From assembly GCA_000004985.1 (NCBI GenBank), contig GG738863.1: DNA of 64,000 bases. One strand, given 5' to 3'. The notes under the pieces are model-generated. The model worked only from the letters and a program-made list of their open reading frames with translations. It ran no database searches and was not told the origin of the DNA. Position 1 is the first letter of the stretch; each line of letters begins with the position of its first letter. Made by a program: the position numbers and the translations under genes. Shown piece after piece: positions 13,935-53,976 of this stretch. Source of the stretch: Naegleria gruberi. Lineage: Eukaryota.

Positions 13935-14006
13935 GGGACCATGGTCTAGTGGTATGATTCTCGCTTTGGGTGCGAGAGGCCGTGGGTTCGATTCCCACTG
14001 GTCCCC
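13935..14006 (+). tRNA. tRNA-Pro (anticodon UGG)
   Basis: Cloverleaf by hand. The 7-bp acceptor GGGACCA/TGGTCCC pairs, with a D-loop AGTGGTA. The anticodon stem CTCGC/GCGAG carries the loop TTTGGGT, giving anticodon TGG. The T-arm is GTGGG-TTCGATT-CCCAC. Closely resembles canonical eukaryotic tRNA-Pro. Confidence 0.9.
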
Positions 14007-20576: not shown

Positions 20577-22337
20577 CTAAATACTGAAAATATGATTGCT
20601 TGCTCTACACTTTTCAATACATGATTGATAGCGAGATTCATCCTTATTTGATTCCTTCTTGTTTGTAATATCAACATTGTTCAATTCATTGGACATTTCA
20701 TCTGTGATACAAGCAGAGAGACAGGTCATTTGCAAGTCAAACTTCCACTTGACGATTGAGTTCAGCTCTCTAACCAGCCTTGGAAATAATCTGTGTATCA
20801 TACGATATCTAGCTGCGAATGAATTCACCAACTTGATGTGCTGTAAAACTTTTTCAAAATACTTTTTTTCTTCCTCATCTTCAAATATGGATCTTATATT
20901 TCTTCCTTGTCCTATTTTTTCAATTATTCGAATTCTAATAGAATTAAATTGGTTAATTCTGTGACGGACAAAAACTGCCAAATTATGAAATGAATAAAGA
21001 GGAAGTATCAATGAAAAATTAAAGAGTAACAATTCAACCTTTTCGACCAATTCATTCAAACCATCTGCATTAAAATTTAAGAGCTTCAAAGTGGAATAAA
21101 GTCCGTAATTGTGCATCAGCTCAATAGTGGCATGCTTGATTTGTTTTTGAGGATCGGAGAGCTTCTTATTTGCAATCTTGTTATAGAGGAAATCTCTCAC
21201 TGAATATATTAGAGATAATGTAGAAGCTGCATTTTCTAAAGTAATACCATTATTAATAGATTCTGAATCATACTTGTTATCATTGACGTAATGATCATAA
21301 AATTTGGTAAATGATTTCCCAACAAACTTTGAATTTTCTAAATCATCATCCCCAATTGATATATGAGCCTCTCCTTTTGAAGCAATCATTTTGAATTTAA
21401 GTTTGTTTACATCATCCAAATATGGATCGTTTTCAAGGTCCTTGATATAGTTCAAATAATTCCAAGCCATTTCAGTTTGGCCATCGCCAATAGTAAACAT
21501 GGTAAGGAGAACCTTGGAAACCTTTGTACAAAAGTCAACTGGATGAGCCAATGAAGAGTAGTGCACTGACTCTCTAAAGGAATTAAGAGAACGCTCAGTT
21601 TGACTCATCGACTGTTCACACAAACTCTGCACAGCAGAAAGCAGTGTTCTTACAGAGTATTCTTTCTCATATAAATCAACATTCGCCACAATTTCCTCCA
21701 TCTGTTCTCTACTCAAAAAGTCAAAGTTAACATCCACAAAGTCAAAAAAGTAATTAACAATAGCATGATGAATGTTTCCTTTCACCAAGTTTCTCTCCCT
21801 TGTCAAGTATGTTTGTTGTTGTTTTGAGAGATAGGGATGGAATCCGTTAGTTGTTGCTCTCTTTGCTTCCTTGTTTGTTGTTGCTGATGGAGCAATTATT
21901 GCCAATTTCTTCTTCTTTGAATTGTTGTTGTTAGACATATTTACAGTTGTTATTATTGTAGAGGTATTTGTTGGTGATGTTGAAGAAGATGGAGACGATG
22001 ATGAAGAAGAGGAGTTATTACAGTCATTCTTCTTATTTCCTTTAACTCTTCCTCTCTTCTTTGGAGGTATGTATTGACAAGGTCGTTTTCTCATGATACA
22101 TTCAGAACACGATGGTTTGATACGATCACAAGCAAGGTGAGACTTTCTACAGCCTGAGCAAGCAATTTTAGCAAACTGACTCTCCAATTCATCCTTGCCA
22201 CTACTACTATTATCACTATTACTACTACTATTAATCACTTCAACAACAACACCTTGTTCTTCTTCTATTGGTTGGTTACCATTGTCCTCTCCGATATTTT
22301 CCAATTCTGCAATAAATTCATCAAAGATTTGATCCAT
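20577..22337 (-). CDS. Zn(II)2Cys6 (GAL4-type) zinc-cluster transcription factor
   Basis: Perfect C-x2-C-x6-C-x6-C-x2-C-x6-C motif (CSGCRKSHLACDRIKPSCSECIMRKRPC) followed by a basic stretch and S/N-rich linker. The track start 22352 is TTG; the first ATG is at 22337 (MDQIFDEF). Confidence 0.65.
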   Translation of the reverse strand: MDQIFDEFIAELENIGEDNGNQPIEEEQGVVVEVINSSSNSDNSSSGKDELESQFAKIACSGCRKSHLACDRIKPSCSECIMRKRPCQYIPPKKRGRVKGNKKNDCNNSSSSSSSPSSSTSPTNTSTIITTVNMSNNNNSKKKKLAIIAPSATTNKEAKRATTNGFHPYLSKQQQTYLTRERNLVKGNIHHAIVNYFFDFVDVNFDFLSREQMEEIVANVDLYEKEYSVRTLLSAVQSLCEQSMSQTERSLNSFRESVHYSSLAHPVDFCTKVSKVLLTMFTIGDGQTEMAWNYLNYIKDLENDPYLDDVNKLKFKMIASKGEAHISIGDDDLENSKFVGKSFTKFYDHYVNDNKYDSESINNGITLENAASTLSLIYSVRDFLYNKIANKKLSDPQKQIKHATIELMHNYGLYSTLKLLNFNADGLNELVEKVELLLFNFSLILPLYSFHNLAVFVRHRINQFNSIRIRIIEKIGQGRNIRSIFEDEEEKKYFEKVLQHIKLVNSFAARYRMIHRLFPRLVRELNSIVKWKFDLQMTCLSACITDEMSNELNNVDITNKKESNKDESRYQSCIEKCRASNHIFSI

Positions 22338-47099: not shown

Positions 47100-48524
47100 A
47101 TGCTCGATATCAACTTGTTAAGAGAATACAAGAACGGAAACCCTGAAATTGTCAGAGAATCCCAACGTAGAAGACACAAGGATGTTGCTCTCGTCGATAA
47201 AGTCATTGAATTGGATGCAGAATGGAGAAAGCTTACTGGTGAAGTTAATGGTATCAAGAACTTGGGCAACATTGTCAGCAAGGAAGTTGGTCAAAGAATG
47301 AAGGCTAAACAACCACTCGGTGATGATATTGAAATCCCACAAGAAATTTTGGCTACTGTCGATAAGAATTTTACAAAGGAAACTCTTGAAAGTGTTTTCC
47401 CTCAACTCAACACAAATCAATTGAAGAAACTTTCTAATCATATTACCGAAGTTCACGTCAAGCAAGCTGATACTGATGCTTCTAATAAGGAAAAGGAAAG
47501 AGATGAAGTTTTGCTTCAACTTGGTAACCTTGTTCACGAAACTGTTGTTGTTAGTGATAATGAAGATAACAATGGTATTGTTCGTTTGGTTGGTAATCCA
47601 AGACCAAAGGTTGATGACAGTGGATTCAAATGTCTTAAACATATTGATATCATGAGAAAGCTCGGATGTTTGGCTACTGAAGAAGGTACTCAAGTTGGTG
47701 GTGGTAGAGGTTATTTCTTGATGGGAGATTTGGTTAGATTGAACTTGGCTCTCCAAAATTATGCTATTCAATTTTTGACTGAAAAGGGATTCTGTCCAAT
47801 GTACACACCATTCTTCATGACAAAGGATCAAATGAAGAGAGTTGCTCAATTATCTCAATTTGATGAAGAATTATATACTGTTTCTGGTGAAGGTGAAGAC
47901 AAGTATTTGATTGCCACTTCTGAACAACCAATTGCTGCTTTCCACTTGGATAAGAGATTTGACGAAAGTGAACTTCCATTGAAGTATTGTGGTATGTCCA
48001 CTTGTTTCAGAAAGGAAGTTGGTGCTCACGGTAAGGATACTTTGGGTATTTTCCGTGTCCATCAATTTGAAAAGATTGAACAATTCGTTGTCACTTCTCC
48101 AAAGGACAATAAGAGTTGGGAAATGTTCGAAGATATGATTGGTAACTCTGAAGCTTTCTATCAATCTCTTGGTCTCTCCTACAGAGTTGTTAATATTGTC
48201 AGTGGTGCTTTGAACAATGCTGCTGCTAAGAAGTTAGATTTGGAAGCTTGGTTCCCAGGTGCTGAAGAAGGTAACGAATATCGTGAATTGGTTTCTTGCT
48301 CTAATTGTACTGACTATCAAGCCAGAAGATTGAACGTCAGATATGGTAAGGCTGCTACTAAGGGTGATGCTGAATTCTGTCACATGTTGAACTCTACATT
48401 GAGTGCTACTTCTAGAACTATTTGTTGTATTGTTGAAAATTACCAAACTCCAGAAGGTGTTAATATTCCAGAAGTTTTACAACCATACATGGGTGGTACC
48501 AAATTCATTCCATACAAGAAGTAA
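47100..48524 (+). CDS. serS: seryl-tRNA synthetase (class II aaRS), cytosolic type, intronless
   Basis: 474 aa. N-terminal coiled-coil arm, class II motifs (FRKEVGAHGKDTLGIFRVHQFEKIEQF, GxGxGxxR-like GGGRGYFL) and C-terminal ...CCIVENYQTPEGVNIPEVLQPYMGG typical of eukaryotic SerRS. Confidence 0.9.
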   Translation: MLDINLLREYKNGNPEIVRESQRRRHKDVALVDKVIELDAEWRKLTGEVNGIKNLGNIVSKEVGQRMKAKQPLGDDIEIPQEILATVDKNFTKETLESVFPQLNTNQLKKLSNHITEVHVKQADTDASNKEKERDEVLLQLGNLVHETVVVSDNEDNNGIVRLVGNPRPKVDDSGFKCLKHIDIMRKLGCLATEEGTQVGGGRGYFLMGDLVRLNLALQNYAIQFLTEKGFCPMYTPFFMTKDQMKRVAQLSQFDEELYTVSGEGEDKYLIATSEQPIAAFHLDKRFDESELPLKYCGMSTCFRKEVGAHGKDTLGIFRVHQFEKIEQFVVTSPKDNKSWEMFEDMIGNSEAFYQSLGLSYRVVNIVSGALNNAAAKKLDLEAWFPGAEEGNEYRELVSCSNCTDYQARRLNVRYGKAATKGDAEFCHMLNSTLSATSRTICCIVENYQTPEGVNIPEVLQPYMGGTKFIPYKK

Positions 48525-48728
48525 ATTTATTAATCTTTTGTTTTTAAATTTTACTTTCTTATGTGAGAAGGAACATAAGGAATCTAAATTTGAAAAATTC
48601 AAGTTAAGTTGGACTTGTTTCTATCCTGTGGTATCCTGCGGTGATCTATTCAGCTCAGAATTTCGAAACAATTCACGCCAAAGGAATCAAGTGAATTCAT
48701 TTATATTTCAGATTTTATGATAGTGGAT

Positions 48729-48819
48729 GGCTACGGCGTCCGATTTGAGAAGTTAAGCATCGTCGAGCCACATCAGTACTGAGGTTGGAGACAACTTGGG
48801 AACCTGTGGTGCTGTAGTC
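48729..48819 (+). rRNA. 5S rRNA gene copy with internal 27-nt deletion (91 nt; likely pseudogene or variant), followed by T-run
   Basis: GGCTACGGC|GTCCGATTTGAGAAGTTAAGCATCGTCGAGCC...GGTTGGAGACAACTTGGGAACCTGTGGTGCTGTAGTC TTTT is 100% identical to the full copy at 53607-53724 apart from lacking nt 10-36 (helix II/loop B). Confidence 0.7.
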
Positions 48820-48875
48820 TTTTATTTTGAAAACCTTTTGGCTATTTTCATCTTCAAAAAAAATGCAAGAAGAAA

Positions 48876-51389
48876 ATGCCACCCTCAATAACTGCAAGTA
48901 ACGAGAAACTAAAATCAAAGAAAACGACAAAGAGGAAAAATGAAGAGGAATATATTCCTTTTGATAATGATGAATTTATTGAGGCAGAGGATGAAACTAC
49001 GAAAGCAAAAAAACCAACAAAAACAAATATTAAGGTTACTACTCACAACAATCCTGTGCCAAGCACACCCAAAAAGAGAAAAACAGGATCTACTGTTGAC
49101 TTTGTTCCTGTAACCACCCCATCCACATATACAAATTCAAACCATAATCCTGTTAAAGTGGATTTTTGCCAGTCAGACCTGGCTAACGATGATAGCCTGT
49201 TTAAAATACCATTTATTAACAGAGAATATGTTTCTCAACAATTAGCAGAATCTCTATTACTCCAAAAATCCACACAAAAAGGAATCCTGCCAATTTTGAG
49301 CCAACATTTTGGAAGTGGAAAGACAGCCCTTGTTGAAAACTTTAGACAAGTTTTAACAAGAAACAATATTTCTCTTGTTGGCACAGAAGAAAATGTCAAG
49401 AGTTTGATGCAGGCTGCCTTGGTTTATTTGGACGTATCAATTGAGGCTCCTTCTGATAAGTTTGAGGATTTAGATTTAAAAGGTATTTTTTTTGAAAATT
49501 GCTTGGAAAGAACATGTGATGCTTTAAAACAGGTTGATGCAACATTCTTGGACGAATCAGAAAAGGAAAAATTGAAAATGAGTTTGTCTGTGATTCAGAA
49601 TATGGTTTGTAATGAAGAACCACTCTACTTGCATCAGAAAGTTGTTGCCTCATTCAAGGATTGTGGTAACATTTTCAACTTTTTTCAAAGATGGTCAAAA
49701 AACCAACTTTTTCCCTTACTTTTATTTTTTGATGAATTTTCCCACTTGGGAGAGAGTGTAATTCTCAAATTTTGGCAAAGGTTGAAACTGCTCTTTGGAT
49801 GTACAAACCCTGGAAAAACTATTAGATATCCAGGTATATATATTGTGGTTGCTGGTAAATCGGCTGCCCTCGCCAAATTAGGAAGAGGTTTCATTGTTTC
49901 TCCAACGCCATCTATTCACATTGTATTGGACATGCTGAAAGTTGAGCATATAGCTGAACTGATAACTGAGTTAGAAATTTCACCAAACAAAAGTATTACA
50001 ATGAAACAATTTTTGGAACAGGAATTCAAAATTGGGAAACATTTTGAGTTTTTTTGTAAAGTTCTTCATGAATATTCTGGAGGAATACCTAGACTAATTA
50101 TCAAAACAGCATTCTCTTTTGTGGACTATTGGCGTAGAACAGGAAAAGCAGTGGAATTGTCTTCACGAGAAAAAATTGAGCTAGTATTTAAAAGTTTCAA
50201 AACAAGTGAAATATTGAGCCATGTAAGAAACCTTTCTGAAATAATTCCATTAACATTTGAGGCTGACCATCCTTCATATTCAACCTTGAAAAGATTTTTC
50301 TATTTTGCAACTGTCGGAATTCCAGTAGAACCAAAAGCAAATATGATTGATCTAATATATGATTTGAATATTGGAGTGGAAACCATGTTGGTAGCAGAGG
50401 AAGATGTTTCACACCAATATTTTCGACCAATTGTTCCAAAATTTATTTCACTTTCAGAAATAGAAATACCTGAAAAAATTCAAATGTTGCAACAAATATT
50501 CTCTCATGGATTTAAAGAGTCTCAATATGTTGACAAAGGAGCATTGCTAGAAATACTTGTACGAGATACCATCATTAGCAAAATTGTTTTTCTTATCACA
50601 GAAAACAAGTTGAAAGGAGGCAAATGGAAAACAATACATCCATGTTTTGCAAAATCAAATCTCTTGAGAGATAAAATTGTCAAGATGGATACACAGTATG
50701 TGAGATACATGCCAAAAATTATTACCAGCAATAAGGCCAAGTGTCATAAAGATTCAGAATACTTTGAAATGGATATTCCTTGGGACCATACAGCATCTGA
50801 TCAAAACTGGAAAAAAGTGAAACAAGTCTTTTTTATTGGTGATTGCCTTGTTCATCCAGCTCCTAAATCAAGGTCAAGTGATTTTTACATCAACCTCCCT
50901 CCTGATTGTGCACTTGCTTTTGCAGTTAAGAATTATCCAAAAACTGTATTTTCAATTCAAATGCTACAACAAGAGATTGATACGTGTTTTTTATCTACAC
51001 AGAAAGGCACTTTTTCAAAGATTACATTATTCGTATTTTGTAGTGGTATTGAACATTCTGATCTTAATAACTATTGCGATCGTGATGGATGTTTGGTTCT
51101 TGAATCTGGAGTTTATGAGTTTGAGGAGAATAATACTATCAAAACAACTCAATCAAGTTTTAAACCAGTTTTTAAAAAACTTAGAAATACACCAAATAAT
51201 ATATCAGAGTACTCACCGCCACACCACGATCTCAAAATTTATATCCCTGACGACATGGAAGTTATCGTTTTAGGCAAGCAAAGTTTTGACTCTTTTTTCA
51301 ATGAAAATGATAGGTCATTATTGCAACGCTTATCAACAGACTTGCCAACTGTTCAACACCTAGAAAGCATTTTACCAAATATTTATTAA
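48876..51389 (+). CDS. uncharacterised P-loop NTPase (837 aa) with basic N-terminal NLS-like region
   Basis: ATG confirmed. Walker A LSQHFGSGKTALVENF, candidate Walker B LLLFFDEFSHLGE, and a large C-terminal region of unknown fold. Lies between the two 5S copies. Confidence 0.55.
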   Translation: MPPSITASNEKLKSKKTTKRKNEEEYIPFDNDEFIEAEDETTKAKKPTKTNIKVTTHNNPVPSTPKKRKTGSTVDFVPVTTPSTYTNSNHNPVKVDFCQSDLANDDSLFKIPFINREYVSQQLAESLLLQKSTQKGILPILSQHFGSGKTALVENFRQVLTRNNISLVGTEENVKSLMQAALVYLDVSIEAPSDKFEDLDLKGIFFENCLERTCDALKQVDATFLDESEKEKLKMSLSVIQNMVCNEEPLYLHQKVVASFKDCGNIFNFFQRWSKNQLFPLLLFFDEFSHLGESVILKFWQRLKLLFGCTNPGKTIRYPGIYIVVAGKSAALAKLGRGFIVSPTPSIHIVLDMLKVEHIAELITELEISPNKSITMKQFLEQEFKIGKHFEFFCKVLHEYSGGIPRLIIKTAFSFVDYWRRTGKAVELSSREKIELVFKSFKTSEILSHVRNLSEIIPLTFEADHPSYSTLKRFFYFATVGIPVEPKANMIDLIYDLNIGVETMLVAEEDVSHQYFRPIVPKFISLSEIEIPEKIQMLQQIFSHGFKESQYVDKGALLEILVRDTIISKIVFLITENKLKGGKWKTIHPCFAKSNLLRDKIVKMDTQYVRYMPKIITSNKAKCHKDSEYFEMDIPWDHTASDQNWKKVKQVFFIGDCLVHPAPKSRSSDFYINLPPDCALAFAVKNYPKTVFSIQMLQQEIDTCFLSTQKGTFSKITLFVFCSGIEHSDLNNYCDRDGCLVLESGVYEFEENNTIKTTQSSFKPVFKKLRNTPNNISEYSPPHHDLKIYIPDDMEVIVLGKQSFDSFFNENDRSLLQRLSTDLPTVQHLESILPNIY

Positions 51390-51725
51390 GTATTGGAATA
51401 GCTTACAAGGTTGAAATTACTTCATTGCAATTAAATGACAGATGACATTAATAAACTTTCACGTTTTTCTATGCTAATATTAAGTGATGTTATGTTTCAT
51501 TTCACTTATATTTGACTCATTCATCAATTAGATTGCCAAGTTTTATCAAGCGATGTTAATTGTTTCATTTCACTAATGTAACCTTCTTGTTTTACCATGA
51601 TGATGACAATGATGCTGTAATTACAGAAGAGTTTTTTACATTTATCCTAAATCCACAAGCACTTGGAACTTATTGGTCAACTTGCTTTTCGAAATGGTAT
51701 TCATGGAAACACAACATTGAAAAAA

Positions 51726-53588
51726 ATGAATACAAATAACCTTCCCACAGATTGCTTGTTGTACTTGTGTGATTTTATGATCCTTCAATTGAATGATTAT
51801 TGCAATATTTTCCTAGTTAACAAACATTGGAGGAATTCATTGGAATTGAATAATCATTTCTGGTTGAGGCAAGTGTGTGGTATTGTTAAAATGGCTTCCG
51901 ATGATCATCATCATTCCTTTGATCAATTGTGTAGCATGGTAATTTATGGAAATTGGACTGAATTCAAATTAAAGTATAAAGGAAATGTGTATTTACATAA
52001 ATTTTGGAAGAGAATTGAAAAGTTAAAGGAAATGAGTAGTGATATTGAACTCTTAAAATCAGCAGCTTTTCAAGTGATTGTGCAATTTCATAGAAATGCA
52101 TCGAGTCAATTTCAAAAAGAACGGTTAAAATTGGAGAACACTCACTATTTGGAAAGGTTTGAAAAGTATCACTTCTTTTATCAAGATGAATATCAGTCGA
52201 ATGTCAATATGATTTTAACAATAGATAGCATGTTCATGACTCATTTCTCTCAGTATTGGGTTTATTTGATAGGCTTTGATACTAAATATCCAAATACACC
52301 AACCAGATTAACAACCATGTTTTTACAGAAATGTATCGAGTCGAAACAGAATTATTGTGGTAAAATGGCAAGTCTATTGTCATTTACTTTGAATAGTGAG
52401 ACACTCATTGGTATAGATGTTGAGAATTTTCTATCAACCTTGATCAATTCATTGCTAAAGTATTTCACAAACCCTAGTATTAGCAAGAATCACAAGCAAA
52501 AGCTCGATCTTTATCAAAAATTGATTGATGAAATGTTTTTGAATTTGAATGAGTATCATAGTGGTGAAATATTTGTTTCAATAATGAAACGACTTCAGTC
52601 TGATATTTTCCCACTTGTTTCCAAAGAAAAGCAACAATGTGAGATTGTCACAATACCAAAATTGTCAAAACAATTATTGAATATTATTTGCCAAGATGGA
52701 AATATGAGAGAAAATATTATCCCTTTCGTATTTTCTAATTTTCGAGTGGAGAGTAACATGTTACAAACCTTATTGAAAAGTTCAAGAGATTCATTTATAG
52801 TGAAATGGTACTATACTACTTTACGAGATGAATTCACATGTGTGATCTATCCTCAAATCGAATATGTGATGGGAGAAGAGTTGATTTCATTTCAAGAATT
52901 GATCCAAACATTGGCTAATCATTACATGAAACGAGGGAAGACATTTAAGAAACTGTTGCAAGATATTCAAAAAACTAGCTGTCCATTCAAAATGGTACTT
53001 AGAAAGGGCGTGGGATTATTAGAAACCATTGAGCATTTGGAATATTACTACCAACTCTACTCGACCAATATGAAGAAGGATGTTGTAAAAGAGTATTTGG
53101 CTGAAGCACTTGGAGAAATGTTTCCAAGTATGATAGAAAGTAGTGGCGTTCCTTTCGCCAAGAGTATTGTCGATCATTACAAGACCAATTTCCATATTCC
53201 TCTTCACAAATGCTCAAAAAAGAATCATGACGCAAACATGTGCTTTGATATTTGTGAGATTTTGACTGCCAATCAAAATTGTCCAAAGAATTGGAAAGAT
53301 AATCAAGCTTACTTTACGATTCATCCAATAGCTTTATATTTAATTGGAAATAGGTATTGTTATGGTGGAAATCTTGATCTTTCGAGCTTTCTTCCTGAAT
53401 ATGGAGAAACTATAATTACAGTTCCAATTTTGATAGATTTTGTGAGAACCTATACTGGTAATGATAGTTCACCAATTTATAGTTTTCCCTATTCGAAAGT
53501 TCCACCAACATCTATTCGATTCATTTTGAAGAAGGTCACATTGAAAACCTTACTTGAAAATCCAATGCTTATTCTGGATCACCTGTAG
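51726..53588 (+). CDS. F-box-like protein (620 aa), function unknown
   Basis: The track start 51663 is TTG; the first ATG is 51726 in an AAAAAAATG context, giving MNTNNLPTDCLLYLCDFMILQLNDYCNIFLVNKHWRNS (F-box-like). Second gene between the 5S copies. Confidence 0.5.
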   Translation: MNTNNLPTDCLLYLCDFMILQLNDYCNIFLVNKHWRNSLELNNHFWLRQVCGIVKMASDDHHHSFDQLCSMVIYGNWTEFKLKYKGNVYLHKFWKRIEKLKEMSSDIELLKSAAFQVIVQFHRNASSQFQKERLKLENTHYLERFEKYHFFYQDEYQSNVNMILTIDSMFMTHFSQYWVYLIGFDTKYPNTPTRLTTMFLQKCIESKQNYCGKMASLLSFTLNSETLIGIDVENFLSTLINSLLKYFTNPSISKNHKQKLDLYQKLIDEMFLNLNEYHSGEIFVSIMKRLQSDIFPLVSKEKQQCEIVTIPKLSKQLLNIICQDGNMRENIIPFVFSNFRVESNMLQTLLKSSRDSFIVKWYYTTLRDEFTCVIYPQIEYVMGEELISFQELIQTLANHYMKRGKTFKKLLQDIQKTSCPFKMVLRKGVGLLETIEHLEYYYQLYSTNMKKDVVKEYLAEALGEMFPSMIESSGVPFAKSIVDHYKTNFHIPLHKCSKKNHDANMCFDICEILTANQNCPKNWKDNQAYFTIHPIALYLIGNRYCYGGNLDLSSFLPEYGETIITVPILIDFVRTYTGNDSSPIYSFPYSKVPPTSIRFILKKVTLKTLLENPMLILDHL

Positions 53589-53601
53589 ATTTTTCTAAGA
53601 C

Positions 53602-53606
53602 AAAAA
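53602..53606 (-). terminator. RNA polymerase III oligo-T terminator of the 5S gene
   Basis: TTTTT directly 3' of the 5S 3' end on the minus strand. Confidence 0.6.
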
Positions 53607-53724
53607 GACTACAGCACCACAGGTTCCCAAGTTGTCTCCAACCTCAGTACTGATGTGGCTCGACGATGCTTAACTTCTCAAATCGGACGGGATGAGGTGC
53701 ATTCATCGTGATATGGCCGTAGCC
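53607..53724 (-). rRNA. 5S rRNA gene (118 nt), Pol III T5 terminator immediately 3'
   Basis: Minus strand reads GGCTACGGCCATATCACGATGAATGCACCTCATCCCGTCCGATTTGAGAAGTTAAGCATCGTCGAGCCACATCAGTACTGAGGTTGGAGACAACTTGGGAACCTGTGGTGCTGTAGTC. This matches the universal eukaryotic 5S pattern (GGCTACGGCCATA..., ...GAAGTTAAGC..., ...AGTACT..., ...TGGGAGAC-like..., GGTGCTGTAG) and has helix I pairing between the two ends. TTTTT follows at 53602-53606. Confidence 0.85.
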
Positions 53725-53976
53725 ATCATTGTTATTAAAATATGAAATTTCAATCAAAAGAGATTCGGGACCTAGTAGCAAAAGGACCGTTTTTATCTCC
53801 ACCGAACAAATGATATTCAAGTAAATGAAATTAATATTTTAATAAATTGTTTTAGGTATTATTTGATCTGGGACGAAAGTGAACGAATTACATTATTTTT
53901 GTAATTTGAAATTTAAATACTATTCACAATTTAATAATAGTGAATGAACTTTCTCATTTCATTATAATTTGAATAT

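What the first reader, a model, noticed from the sequence alone, without database searches (positions are those of the whole stretch)
48726..53727. Two convergent 5S rRNA genes (one internally deleted) form ~100-bp inverted repeats bracketing a 4.8-kb two-gene cassette
The sequences at 48729-48819 (+) and 53607-53724 (-) are reverse complements of each other. The minus-strand copy is a complete, canonical-looking 118-nt 5S rRNA with a T5 Pol III terminator. The plus-strand copy is 100% identical except for a clean 27-nt internal deletion (5S nt 10-36, helix II/loop B) and is also followed by a T-run. Even 5 nt upstream of each copy (GATGG) are shared. Perfect identity over ~90 nt in a non-tandem, inverted arrangement implies very recent duplication, gene conversion, or a mobile unit. 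The two copies point at each other across exactly two same-strand protein genes (P-loop NTPase and F-box-like protein). At first glance this looks like a TIR transposon, but the 'TIRs' are 5S genes. A 91-nt 5S variant that keeps the internal control region (boxes A/IE/C lie downstream of the deletion) and a terminator could still be transcribed into a novel small RNA.
Basis: seen in the sequence. Interest (0 to 1): 0.75.

Follow-up and report, generated by a model that had tools for sequence, protein, structure and literature searches.

The report
Intact 5S gene plus deleted 5S pseudogene
Two members of the roughly 280-copy scattered 5S ribosomal RNA gene family of the amoeba Naegleria gruberi, one intact and one crippled by a 27-base internal deletion, sit in opposite orientation in neighbouring gene spacers; this looks like transposon ends but is an ordinary feature of this genome.

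Summary
Rfam scores 53606-53724(-) as a full 5S rRNA (105.4 bits). It scores 48729-48820(+) as a 5S with 27 nt missing (42 bits, cut-off 38). The retained bases are 100% identical.

The window is Naegleria gruberi, apparently scaffold_19:64001-128000. A 2012 paper lists 279 dispersed 5S hits in this genome, and both of these copies appear in its table. 38 neighbouring 5S pairs lie 6 kb or less apart, against about 11 expected from uniform scatter, so a 5S pair bracketing one or two genes is common here.

Identity stops at the gene borders. Beyond them there is only a roughly 30-nt upstream promoter-like block and GAT at -3..-1. An unrelated 5S locus from a sister Naegleria lineage has both, and its 5S differs at 1 of 119 nt. 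Perfect identity therefore does not imply recent duplication.

There is no target-site duplication, no transposase, no close second copy of the cassette, no viral match and no unusual codon usage. Gene 1 is an AAA+/Cdc6-like P-loop ATPase with two old paralogues (34-36%). Gene 2 is an orphan with a sub-threshold F-box-like match.

The deleted copy loses helices II/III but keeps the upstream block, box A, box C and a T-run. It is best read as a young 5S pseudogene that may still be transcribed. Low novelty.

The parts
53607..53724 (-). Intact 118-nt 5S rRNA gene. Box A-like AGTTAAGC at +50 and box C-like GAGGTTGGAGACAACTTG at +80.
   Evidence: RF00001 105.4 bits, full model. MFE fold gives the canonical three-arm 5S shape, -41.5 kcal/mol. 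Motif positions.
53602..53606 (-). T5 run, the Pol III terminator of the intact copy. It ends 14 nt from the stop codon of gene 2 on the other strand.
   Evidence: Read directly. The role of T-runs as Pol III terminators is established knowledge.
53725..53757 (-). Upstream promoter-like block of the intact copy: an AT-rich, TATA-like block at about -33..-12, plus GAT at -3..-1.
   Evidence: 20/30, 17/30 and 18/30 identities at -30..-1 among the three 5S loci, against a mean of about 9 for random window 30-mers (P 5e-5 to 4e-3). PMC3369914 reports a TATA box upstream of N. gruberi 5S genes.
48729..48819 (+). 5S copy with a 27-nt internal deletion (5S nt 10-36; junction at 48737|48738). The 91 retained nt are identical to the intact copy. 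Box A is shifted to +23 and box C to +53.
   Evidence: RF00001 42.0 bits against a gathering score of 38. Exact comparison. The fold keeps helix I and helices IV/V but loses II/III.
48820..48828 (+). TTTT-A-TTTT run after the deleted copy. A sister-lineage intact 5S ends with the same TTTTA.
48696..48728 (+). Upstream promoter-like block retained by the deleted copy.
   Evidence: (I2).
48876..51389 (+). Gene 1, 837 aa, 'predicted protein' of N. gruberi. AAA+/Cdc6-Orc1/STAND-like P-loop ATPase with a conserved LSQHxGSGKT motif. Its ATG lies 56 nt after the deleted 5S.
   Evidence: 100% match to the N. gruberi protein P0001. Two N. gruberi paralogues at 34-36% plus environmental homologues. Sub-threshold AAA_16/AAA_22/ATPase_2 matches. 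AF2 pLDDT 65.7; Foldseek best hits are archaeal Cdc6/Orc1, HslU, ORC, CED-4 and SSO1545.
51726..53588 (+). Gene 2, 620 aa, N. gruberi orphan with an N-terminal F-box-like motif (sub-threshold).
   Evidence: Only a self-hit in 5.8 billion proteins. No Pfam family at E<=0.1 for the whole protein. PF12937 at E 0.062, 13.5 bits against a cut-off of 24.3, on residues 4-48.

Best explanation
These are two separate members of the dispersed, highly homogeneous 5S rRNA gene family of Naegleria gruberi. They lie in two nearby intergenic spacers and happen to point at each other.

The right-hand copy (53607-53724, minus strand) is a normal RNA polymerase III gene. It has an AT-rich upstream element, an internal control region (box A at +50, box C at +80) and a T5 terminator.

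The left-hand copy was the same kind of gene and still has the upstream element. It lost 27 bp (nt 10-36) in a single deletion event with 1-nt microhomology. Replication slippage or end-joining is inferred as the cause.

The deletion removes the 5' strands of helices II and III. The RNA can no longer form the arm that binds ribosomal protein uL18/L5, so as ribosomal RNA it is a pseudogene. Its promoter parts and T-run remain, so it may still be transcribed into a ~91-nt RNA (inferred, not shown).

The inverted-repeat geometry is a by-product of the two orientations. The two protein genes between the copies are ordinary resident Naegleria genes, not cargo.

The perfect identity reflects family-wide conservation or homogenisation, together with a deletion that is young.
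For: Shown:
- Both elements are 5S by covariance model.
- The short copy equals the long copy minus nt 10-36.
- The fold keeps helix I and helices IV/V and loses II/III.
- The organism is N. gruberi.
- PMC3369914 finds 279 5S hits in the N. gruberi genome with an ICR and a TATA box. Its Table S1 lists scaffold_19 112737-112821 (85 nt) and 117605-117721. These match this window's copies at an offset of exactly 64000.
- In that table the hits lie on 117 scaffolds. 38 adjacent pairs are 6 kb or less apart, against about 11 expected.
- Identity stops at the gene ends. Upstream similarity is limited to about 30 nt and is shared with an unrelated locus, L001, from a sister lineage.
- The L001 flanking protein is 86% identical to its N. 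gruberi counterpart, while its 5S differs at only 1/119 nt.
- There is no target-site duplication.
- The cassette genes have ordinary GC content and codon usage: r 0.857 and 0.875, within the window range of 0.72-0.915.
- Gene 1 is an AAA+-like ATPase with only old paralogues.
- No 5S lies next to gene-1 homologues or SerRS orthologues in related organisms.
- There are no matches in viral contigs.
Against: - A pseudogene free of selection would be expected to drift, yet it shows 0 changes in 91 nt and still has the upstream block. That fits a very young deletion, but also ongoing gene conversion or selection for some other role.
- Close 5S pairs are about 3.5 times more frequent than uniform scatter predicts. 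The two copies may therefore not be fully independent in origin.
- Expression of either copy was not tested.
- The rest of the N. gruberi assembly could not be searched directly with these tools.
Confidence: 0.85

Rival explanations
1. The two copies are related by a local event. A 5S gene, with its short promoter only, was copied or converted into a nearby spacer in inverted orientation. This would be part of a genome-wide tendency of N. gruberi 5S genes to multiply locally into loose clusters 1.5-5.5 kb apart. The deletion came afterwards. This differs from the best explanation only in the origin of the pair, not in what the parts are.
For: - 38 adjacent pairs are 6 kb or less apart against about 11 expected, and only 4 pairs fall between 6 and 10 kb.
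- The upstream 30 nt of the two window copies are somewhat more alike (20/30) than either is to the sister-lineage locus (17-18/30).
- If the two ID series of Table S1 are the two strands, 11 of the 14 opposite-series close pairs have this window's arrangement (series B on the left, series A on the right, read as convergent) (inference, P=0.057).
Against: - No similarity exists beyond -30 or beyond the T-run, so no duplicated segment can be traced.
- Clustering could equally reflect regional preference for Pol III genes.
- The strand reading of the table IDs is validated on one pair only.
Confidence: 0.3
2. The 4.8-kb segment is a mobile or recently transferred cassette whose terminal inverted repeats are 5S genes.
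For: An exact 87-nt inverted repeat brackets exactly two same-strand genes, one of them an orphan (gene 2) and the other (gene 1) confined to a small Naegleria-specific family.
Against: - No target-site duplication at either candidate boundary.
- No transposase or integrase. Gene 1 folds as a Cdc6/ORC-like AAA+ ATPase, and neither protein has a transposase Pfam match.
- No second copy. The nearest N. gruberi relatives of gene 1 are 34-36% identical, and gene 2 has none.
- Native codon usage.
- No viral matches.
- The 'TIRs' are exactly the host 5S gene and nothing more.
Confidence: 0.03
3. The deleted copy is kept for a function of its own. It might be a stable ~91-nt Pol III transcript (helix I plus the helix IV/V arm). 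Alternatively it might be a TFIIIC/Pol III-bound DNA element acting as a boundary, or as part of the promoter of gene 1, whose ATG lies 56 nt downstream.
For: - Zero substitutions in 91 nt.
- The upstream block, box A, box C and T-run are all retained.
- The predicted fold is stable: -32.2 kcal/mol, z -2.1.
Against: - Apparently a single-locus variant. In Table S1 only one other short hit resembles it (84 nt, on tiny scaffold_1084).
- No conservation data are available.
- The fold z-score is unremarkable.
- All of these features are equally expected of a very young pseudogene.
Confidence: 0.07
4. Assembly or sequencing artefact: the deletion or the inverted copy is not real.
For: Draft assembly; reads were not available here.
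Against: - The repeats (about 90-120 nt) are shorter than typical Sanger read lengths (background knowledge; the sequencing method was not checked with any tool here).
- They are embedded in unique sequence with intact long ORFs on all sides.
- An independent BLAST survey of the same assembly reports the same two hits, but that only confirms the assembly, not the DNA.
Confidence: 0.03

Closest known systems
Dispersed 5S rRNA gene families with pseudogenes. Examples are Neurospora and other filamentous fungi (Selker 1981; Rooney and Ward 2005, as cited in PMC5555474) and the N. gruberi 5S survey in PMC3369914.
   Same: There are many single 5S genes scattered between protein genes. Each has its own short flanks, and the coding region is almost identical between copies. 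A minority of truncated or damaged copies are classed as pseudogenes because the secondary structure is destroyed. Both copies here are already rows in Table S1 of PMC3369914.
   Different: The damage here is a clean internal 27-nt deletion with otherwise perfect identity, rather than terminal truncation or point-mutation decay. The excess of 1.5-5.5 kb neighbour pairs in N. gruberi has not, to my knowledge, been described.
Cassandra / Ajax TRIM retrotransposons and 5S-derived SINEs (PMC10946416, PMC10853983)
   Same: 5S-derived sequence with the internal Pol III promoter sits at the ends of, or within, a repeated unit.
   Different: Those elements have 5S sequence in direct LTRs or as a SINE head. 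They are multicopy, short and non-coding, and flanked by target-site duplications. Here the copies are inverted, the interval is 4.8 kb of unique host genes, there is no duplication of the target, and there is no second copy.
TIR DNA transposons / composite transposons
   Same: An inverted repeat of about 90 nt brackets genes.
   Different: No TSD, no transposase, single copy. The repeat is exactly a host gene.
Pol III genes and TFIIIC sites as chromatin boundaries, such as tRNA genes and the inverted IR boundary elements at the fission-yeast mating-type locus (recalled from the literature, not tested here)
   Same: Two Pol III promoter-bearing elements in inverted orientation flank a small gene block.
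   Different: Nothing here shows chromatin differences or TFIIIC binding. This is an analogy only.

Membership tests
Eukaryotic 5S rRNA gene (Rfam RF00001) | Covariance-model score at or above the gathering threshold (38 bits) | tested here: met
   Intact copy 105.4 bits. Deleted copy 42.0 bits, only just above threshold.
Eukaryotic 5S rRNA gene (Rfam RF00001) | Three-arm fold: helix I, helices II-III (beta arm), helices IV-V (gamma arm) | tested here: met
   Met for the intact copy: the MFE structure equals the 5S consensus. NOT met for the deleted copy, where helices II/III are gone. The deleted copy is therefore filed as a pseudogene or variant, not as a functional 5S.
Eukaryotic 5S rRNA gene (Rfam RF00001) | Pol III signals: internal box A / box C and a downstream T-run | tested here: met
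   Box A-like at +50 (+23 in the deleted copy) and box C-like at +80 (+53). T5 after the intact copy and TTTTATTTT after the deleted copy. This is a motif-level test only.
Eukaryotic 5S rRNA gene (Rfam RF00001) | Transcription and incorporation into ribosomes | not testable with these tools
   No RNA data are available.
5S pseudogene | Derived from a 5S gene, with a lesion that destroys the secondary structure | tested here: met
   91/91 identity outside a 27-nt internal deletion. Loss of helices II/III. Same criterion as cited in PMC5555474.
TIR DNA transposon | Target-site duplication flanking the inverted repeats | tested here: not met
   Flanks are TTTATGATAGTG and ATTGTTATTAAA, with no direct repeat.
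TIR DNA transposon | Encoded transposase, or multiple copies of the same unit | tested here: not met
   No Pfam transposase. Gene 1 has an AAA+/Cdc6-like fold. The nearest paralogues are 34-36% identical, and gene 2 has no relative.
Cassandra/Ajax-type 5S-bearing TRIM | 5S-containing terminal repeats in direct orientation around a short non-coding interior | tested here: not met
   The repeats are inverted and the interior is 4.8 kb with two long ORFs.
AAA+/STAND P-loop NTPase (gene 1) | Walker A motif and AAA+ fold; Pfam match above threshold | tested here: inconclusive
   GSGKT is conserved in the family alignment. Foldseek best hits are Cdc6/Orc1, HslU, ORC, CED-4 and SSO1545, at E 1e-6 to 1e-4 but TM 0.2-0.5, on a model of pLDDT 65.7. 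Pfam AAA_16/AAA_22/ATPase_2 matches are only sub-threshold. The profile search against PDB sequences found nothing.
F-box protein (gene 2) | Pfam F-box / F-box-like match above the curated cut-off | tested here: not met
   PF12937 at 13.5 bits against a cut-off of 24.3, E 0.062, covering profile positions 2-43/47 at residues 4-48. This is suggestive only.

The most novel reading that the evidence does not exclude
5S gene pairs spaced 1.5-5.5 kb apart, possibly with a bias to the convergent arrangement seen here, are a non-random architecture of the N. gruberi genome. Either a 5S-specific local copying mechanism produces them, or they are kept because paired Pol III/TFIIIC-bound elements insulate the one or two genes between them. 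In this reading the 27-nt-deleted copy persists unchanged because it still works as such a DNA element, or as a ~91-nt Pol III transcript.
Probability: 0.08. Interest if true: 0.55.

Novelty: new member of a known kind. Interest (0 to 1): 0.2.

Why it matters
Mostly as a caution. In genomes with scattered, near-identical Pol III genes, two copies in opposite orientation mimic transposon ends, and perfect identity does not date a duplication.

The locus gives a clean example of a very young 5S pseudogene that retains all known promoter parts. It could serve as a natural test of what a Naegleria 5S promoter needs, given that TFIIIA was not found in this species (PMC3369914).

The one point of wider interest is genome-wide rather than local. 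5S genes in N. gruberi occur as close neighbours about 3.5 times more often than uniform scatter predicts.

Tried and rejected
- Fetching the rest of the N. gruberi assembly. Exact-protein look-ups of SerRS, gene 1 and P0001 found nothing on record. Genome-wide statements therefore rest on Table S1 of PMC3369914.
- Scan of metagenome contigs for a 25-nt 5S core. It gave one contig, L001, which was useful as an independent locus. The same pattern gave nothing in bacterial/archaeal genomes or in viral contigs.
- Viral origin of the cassette. No relatives of either protein were found in IMG/VR.
- Synteny test. SerRS orthologue loci (L002-L006) and gene-1 homologue loci (L007, L008) carry no 5S and show no shared gene order. 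The comparison is too distant to date the 5S insertions.
- The profile of the gene-1 family against PDB sequences gave no hit. The Fritz-Laylin 2010 genome paper is not held.
- Rejected: Cassandra-like TRIM, because the repeats are inverted. Rejected: integrative element targeting 5S, because such elements leave direct rather than inverted partial target copies and no integrase is present.
- Rejected as chance: the weak TeloSII_ncR30 match at 21314-21389 (22 bits against a gathering score of 86).
Full report
**What is in the sequence**

The minus strand at 53607-53724 reads as a complete 5S rRNA followed by TTTTT. Rfam's RF00001 model scores 53606-53724 at 105.4 bits (E 4.4e-22) over the whole model.

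The plus strand at 48729-48819 is the same sequence with 27 nt missing, followed by TTTT-A-TTTT. Rfam still calls it 5S, but only just: 42.0 bits against a gathering score of 38.

A direct comparison shows the short copy equals the long one minus nt 10-36 (or 9-35; one C of microhomology), with no other difference. The repeat finder reports an exact 87-nt inverted repeat (48737-48823 / 53603-53689) separated by 4779 nt. It also reports a weaker 42-nt, 74% match covering the first 9 nt of the gene and about 33 nt upstream.

A permissive Rfam scan finds no further 5S-like sequence in the 64 kb. The only other RNA gene is tRNA-Pro(TGG) at 13935-14006.

**Organism and context**

The 837-aa ORF at 48876-51389 is 100% identical to a 'predicted protein' of Naegleria gruberi on a 467,654-bp contig. 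The same holds for the next ORF (620 aa from ATG 51726) and for the seryl-tRNA synthetase at 47100-48524.

The window is gene-dense, essentially intron-free and about 33% G+C throughout.

- The deleted 5S lies in the 352-bp spacer between the synthetase and gene 1, 56 nt before gene 1's ATG.
- The T-run of the intact 5S ends 14 nt from the stop codon of gene 2.

**What is already known about 5S in this genome**

PMC3369914 searched the JGI N. gruberi assembly by BLAST and reports 279 putative 5S genes. It describes an internal control region and an upstream TATA box, and found no recognisable TFIIIA.

Its Table S1 contains scaffold_19 112737-112821 (85 nt) and scaffold_19 117605-117721 (117 nt). 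Subtracting 64000 gives 48737-48821 and 53605-53721. These are the post-deletion part of the left copy and the right copy. The window is evidently scaffold_19:64001-128000, and both copies are already catalogued as hits, though the deletion and the arrangement were not described.

I parsed the table:

- The hits lie on 117 scaffolds, and 235 of 279 are 117 nt long.
- About 20 are shorter partial hits.
- 38 adjacent pairs are 6 kb or less apart, against about 11 expected if 279 genes were scattered uniformly over 41 Mb. The genome size is from my own knowledge of the genome paper.
- Only 4 pairs fall between 6 and 10 kb.

A pair of 5S genes with one or two protein genes between them is therefore common in this genome. 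This locus is rank 32 of 38 by spacing.

The table gives no strand. However, the RNA_ID numbers form two parallel series that each run through the scaffolds in the same order. The two copies of this window, known to be on opposite strands, fall in different series.

If the series are the strands (an inference checked on this one pair only), the 32 classifiable close pairs split as follows:

| Arrangement | Pairs |
|---|---|
| Same strand | 18 |
| Arranged like this one (convergent) | 11 |
| Divergent | 3 |

For convergent against divergent, P = 0.057.

**Do the repeats mark a duplicated or mobile unit?**

- **Extent of similarity.** Identity ends at the T-run on the inner side. On the outer side the two copies share 20 of 30 positions at -30..-1 and nothing beyond.
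- **An independent locus.** A metagenome contig (L001) carries a Naegleria 5S gene with unrelated flanks. Its neighbouring protein is 86% identical to an N. gruberi protein, so it comes from a sister lineage.
- **What that locus shows.** Its 5S differs from the window's at 1 of 119 nt. Its upstream 30 nt match the two window copies at 17 and 18 positions, including GAT at -3..-1 and an AT-rich block at about -33..-12.
- **Significance of the upstream match.** Random 30-mers from the window match at 9 ± 2.5 positions (P 5e-5 to 4e-3; P 0.0015-0.024 against equally AT-rich 30-mers).

The shared flank is therefore the 5S upstream promoter element, not a transposon end. Near-perfect 5S identity holds even between lineages, so identity between two copies does not date a duplication.

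- **No target-site duplication.** The flanks outside the repeat are TTTATGATAGTG and ATTGTTATTAAA.

**The genes between the copies**

*Gene 1:*
- It has no Pfam match above threshold.
- An exhaustive HMMER search finds two N. gruberi paralogues on other scaffolds at 36% and 34% identity. It also finds a handful of environmental Naegleria-like homologues.
- The family conserves LSQHxGSGKT and gives sub-threshold AAA_16/AAA_22/ATPase_2 matches.
- An AlphaFold model built on this small alignment (pLDDT 65.7) matches archaeal Cdc6/Orc1, HslU, ORC subunits, CED-4 and the SSO1545 AAA+ ATPase (E 1e-6 to 1e-4).

*Gene 2:*
- It has no relative at all in the word-indexed search.
- Its N-terminus gives a sub-threshold F-box-like match (E 0.062).

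*Both genes:*
- They have the same G+C content and codon usage as their neighbours. Correlation with the rest of the window is 0.857 and 0.875, within a range of 0.72-0.915 for 25 ORFs.
- Neither has relatives in IMG/VR viral contigs.
- Contigs carrying gene-1 homologues (L007, L008) and SerRS orthologues (L002-L006) have no 5S and no shared gene order.

Nothing marks the interval as cargo.

**What the deletion does**

The intact RNA folds into the canonical three-arm 5S structure (-41.5 kcal/mol). The 92-nt RNA keeps helix I and the helix IV/V arm but has lost helices II and III.

In eukaryotes that arm carries the binding site for ribosomal protein uL18/L5 (established knowledge), so the product cannot be a working 5S rRNA.

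Box A-like AGTTAAGC and box C-like GAGGTTGGAGACAACTTG sit at +50 and +80 in the intact gene, and at +23 and +53 in the deleted one. The upstream block and a T-run remain. The T-run is the same TTTTA as in the intact sister-lineage gene. Transcription is therefore possible but untested.

**Conclusion**

The best reading (confidence about 0.85) is an ordinary 5S gene and a young, internally deleted 5S pseudogene. They lie in neighbouring spacers of a genome that has about 280 scattered copies, and the inverted-repeat look is incidental.

- Whether the two copies arose independently or by local copying is open. The excess of close pairs gives the latter some weight (about 0.3, compatible with the main reading).
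- A mobile cassette (0.03) and an assembly artefact (0.03) are unlikely.
- A retained function for the deleted copy (about 0.07) cannot be excluded, because it shows no decay. The same is expected of a recent deletion.

The closest known cases are the dispersed 5S families with pseudogenes of filamentous fungi. 5S-bearing retroelements (Cassandra, Ajax, 5S-SINEs) differ in every structural criterion tested.

Novelty is low: a new member of a known kind, already listed as two BLAST hits in a published table.

Noticed in passing
Genome-wide (Table S1 of PMC3369914); this window's pair is scaffold_19:112737/117605: N. gruberi 5S hits form 38 neighbour pairs 6 kb or less apart, mostly 1.5-5.5 kb, against about 11 expected from uniform scatter. 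Very few pairs lie at 6-10 kb. If the two ID series of the table are the two strands, opposite-strand close pairs are 11 convergent against 3 divergent. I have not seen this described.
   Followed up: partly
L002 1-21425 (NCBI GCA_048222815.1, JBAMKY010006906.1:104727-126151) and L003: A seryl-tRNA synthetase 72% identical to the N. gruberi enzyme sits in a tightly packed, mostly one-strand run of genes. The run includes glycosyltransferases, RmlD/epimerase genes, a 1103-aa PriCT_2 primase-type protein and a T5orf172/MUG113 protein. This context looks like a giant virus or an integrated viral region carrying a heterolobosean-type aaRS.
   Followed up: no
window 48696-48728 and 53725-53757; L001 658-690: A conserved upstream element of Naegleria 5S genes: an AT-rich block at about -33..-12 plus invariant GAT at -3..-1. 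It is shared by three unrelated loci. It is a candidate Pol III upstream promoter in a species where TFIIIA was not found.
   Followed up: partly
window 48876-51389; P0123, P0124, L007, L008: Gene 1 belongs to a small family found only as three N. gruberi paralogues plus unnamed environmental (metagenome) sequences. Members have a Cdc6/ORC-like AAA+ ATPase domain and a conserved C-terminal PAPKSxSxD...AxKN motif of unknown function.
   Followed up: partly
Table S1 of PMC3369914: scaffold_1084:570-653: An 84-nt partial 5S hit on a tiny scaffold has almost the same length and score as this window's deleted copy (85 nt). It might be the other haplotype of this locus or a second copy of the deletion variant.
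   Followed up: no
window 13935-14006 (+): A single tRNA-Pro(TGG) gene, the only other Pol III gene in the window.
   Followed up: yes
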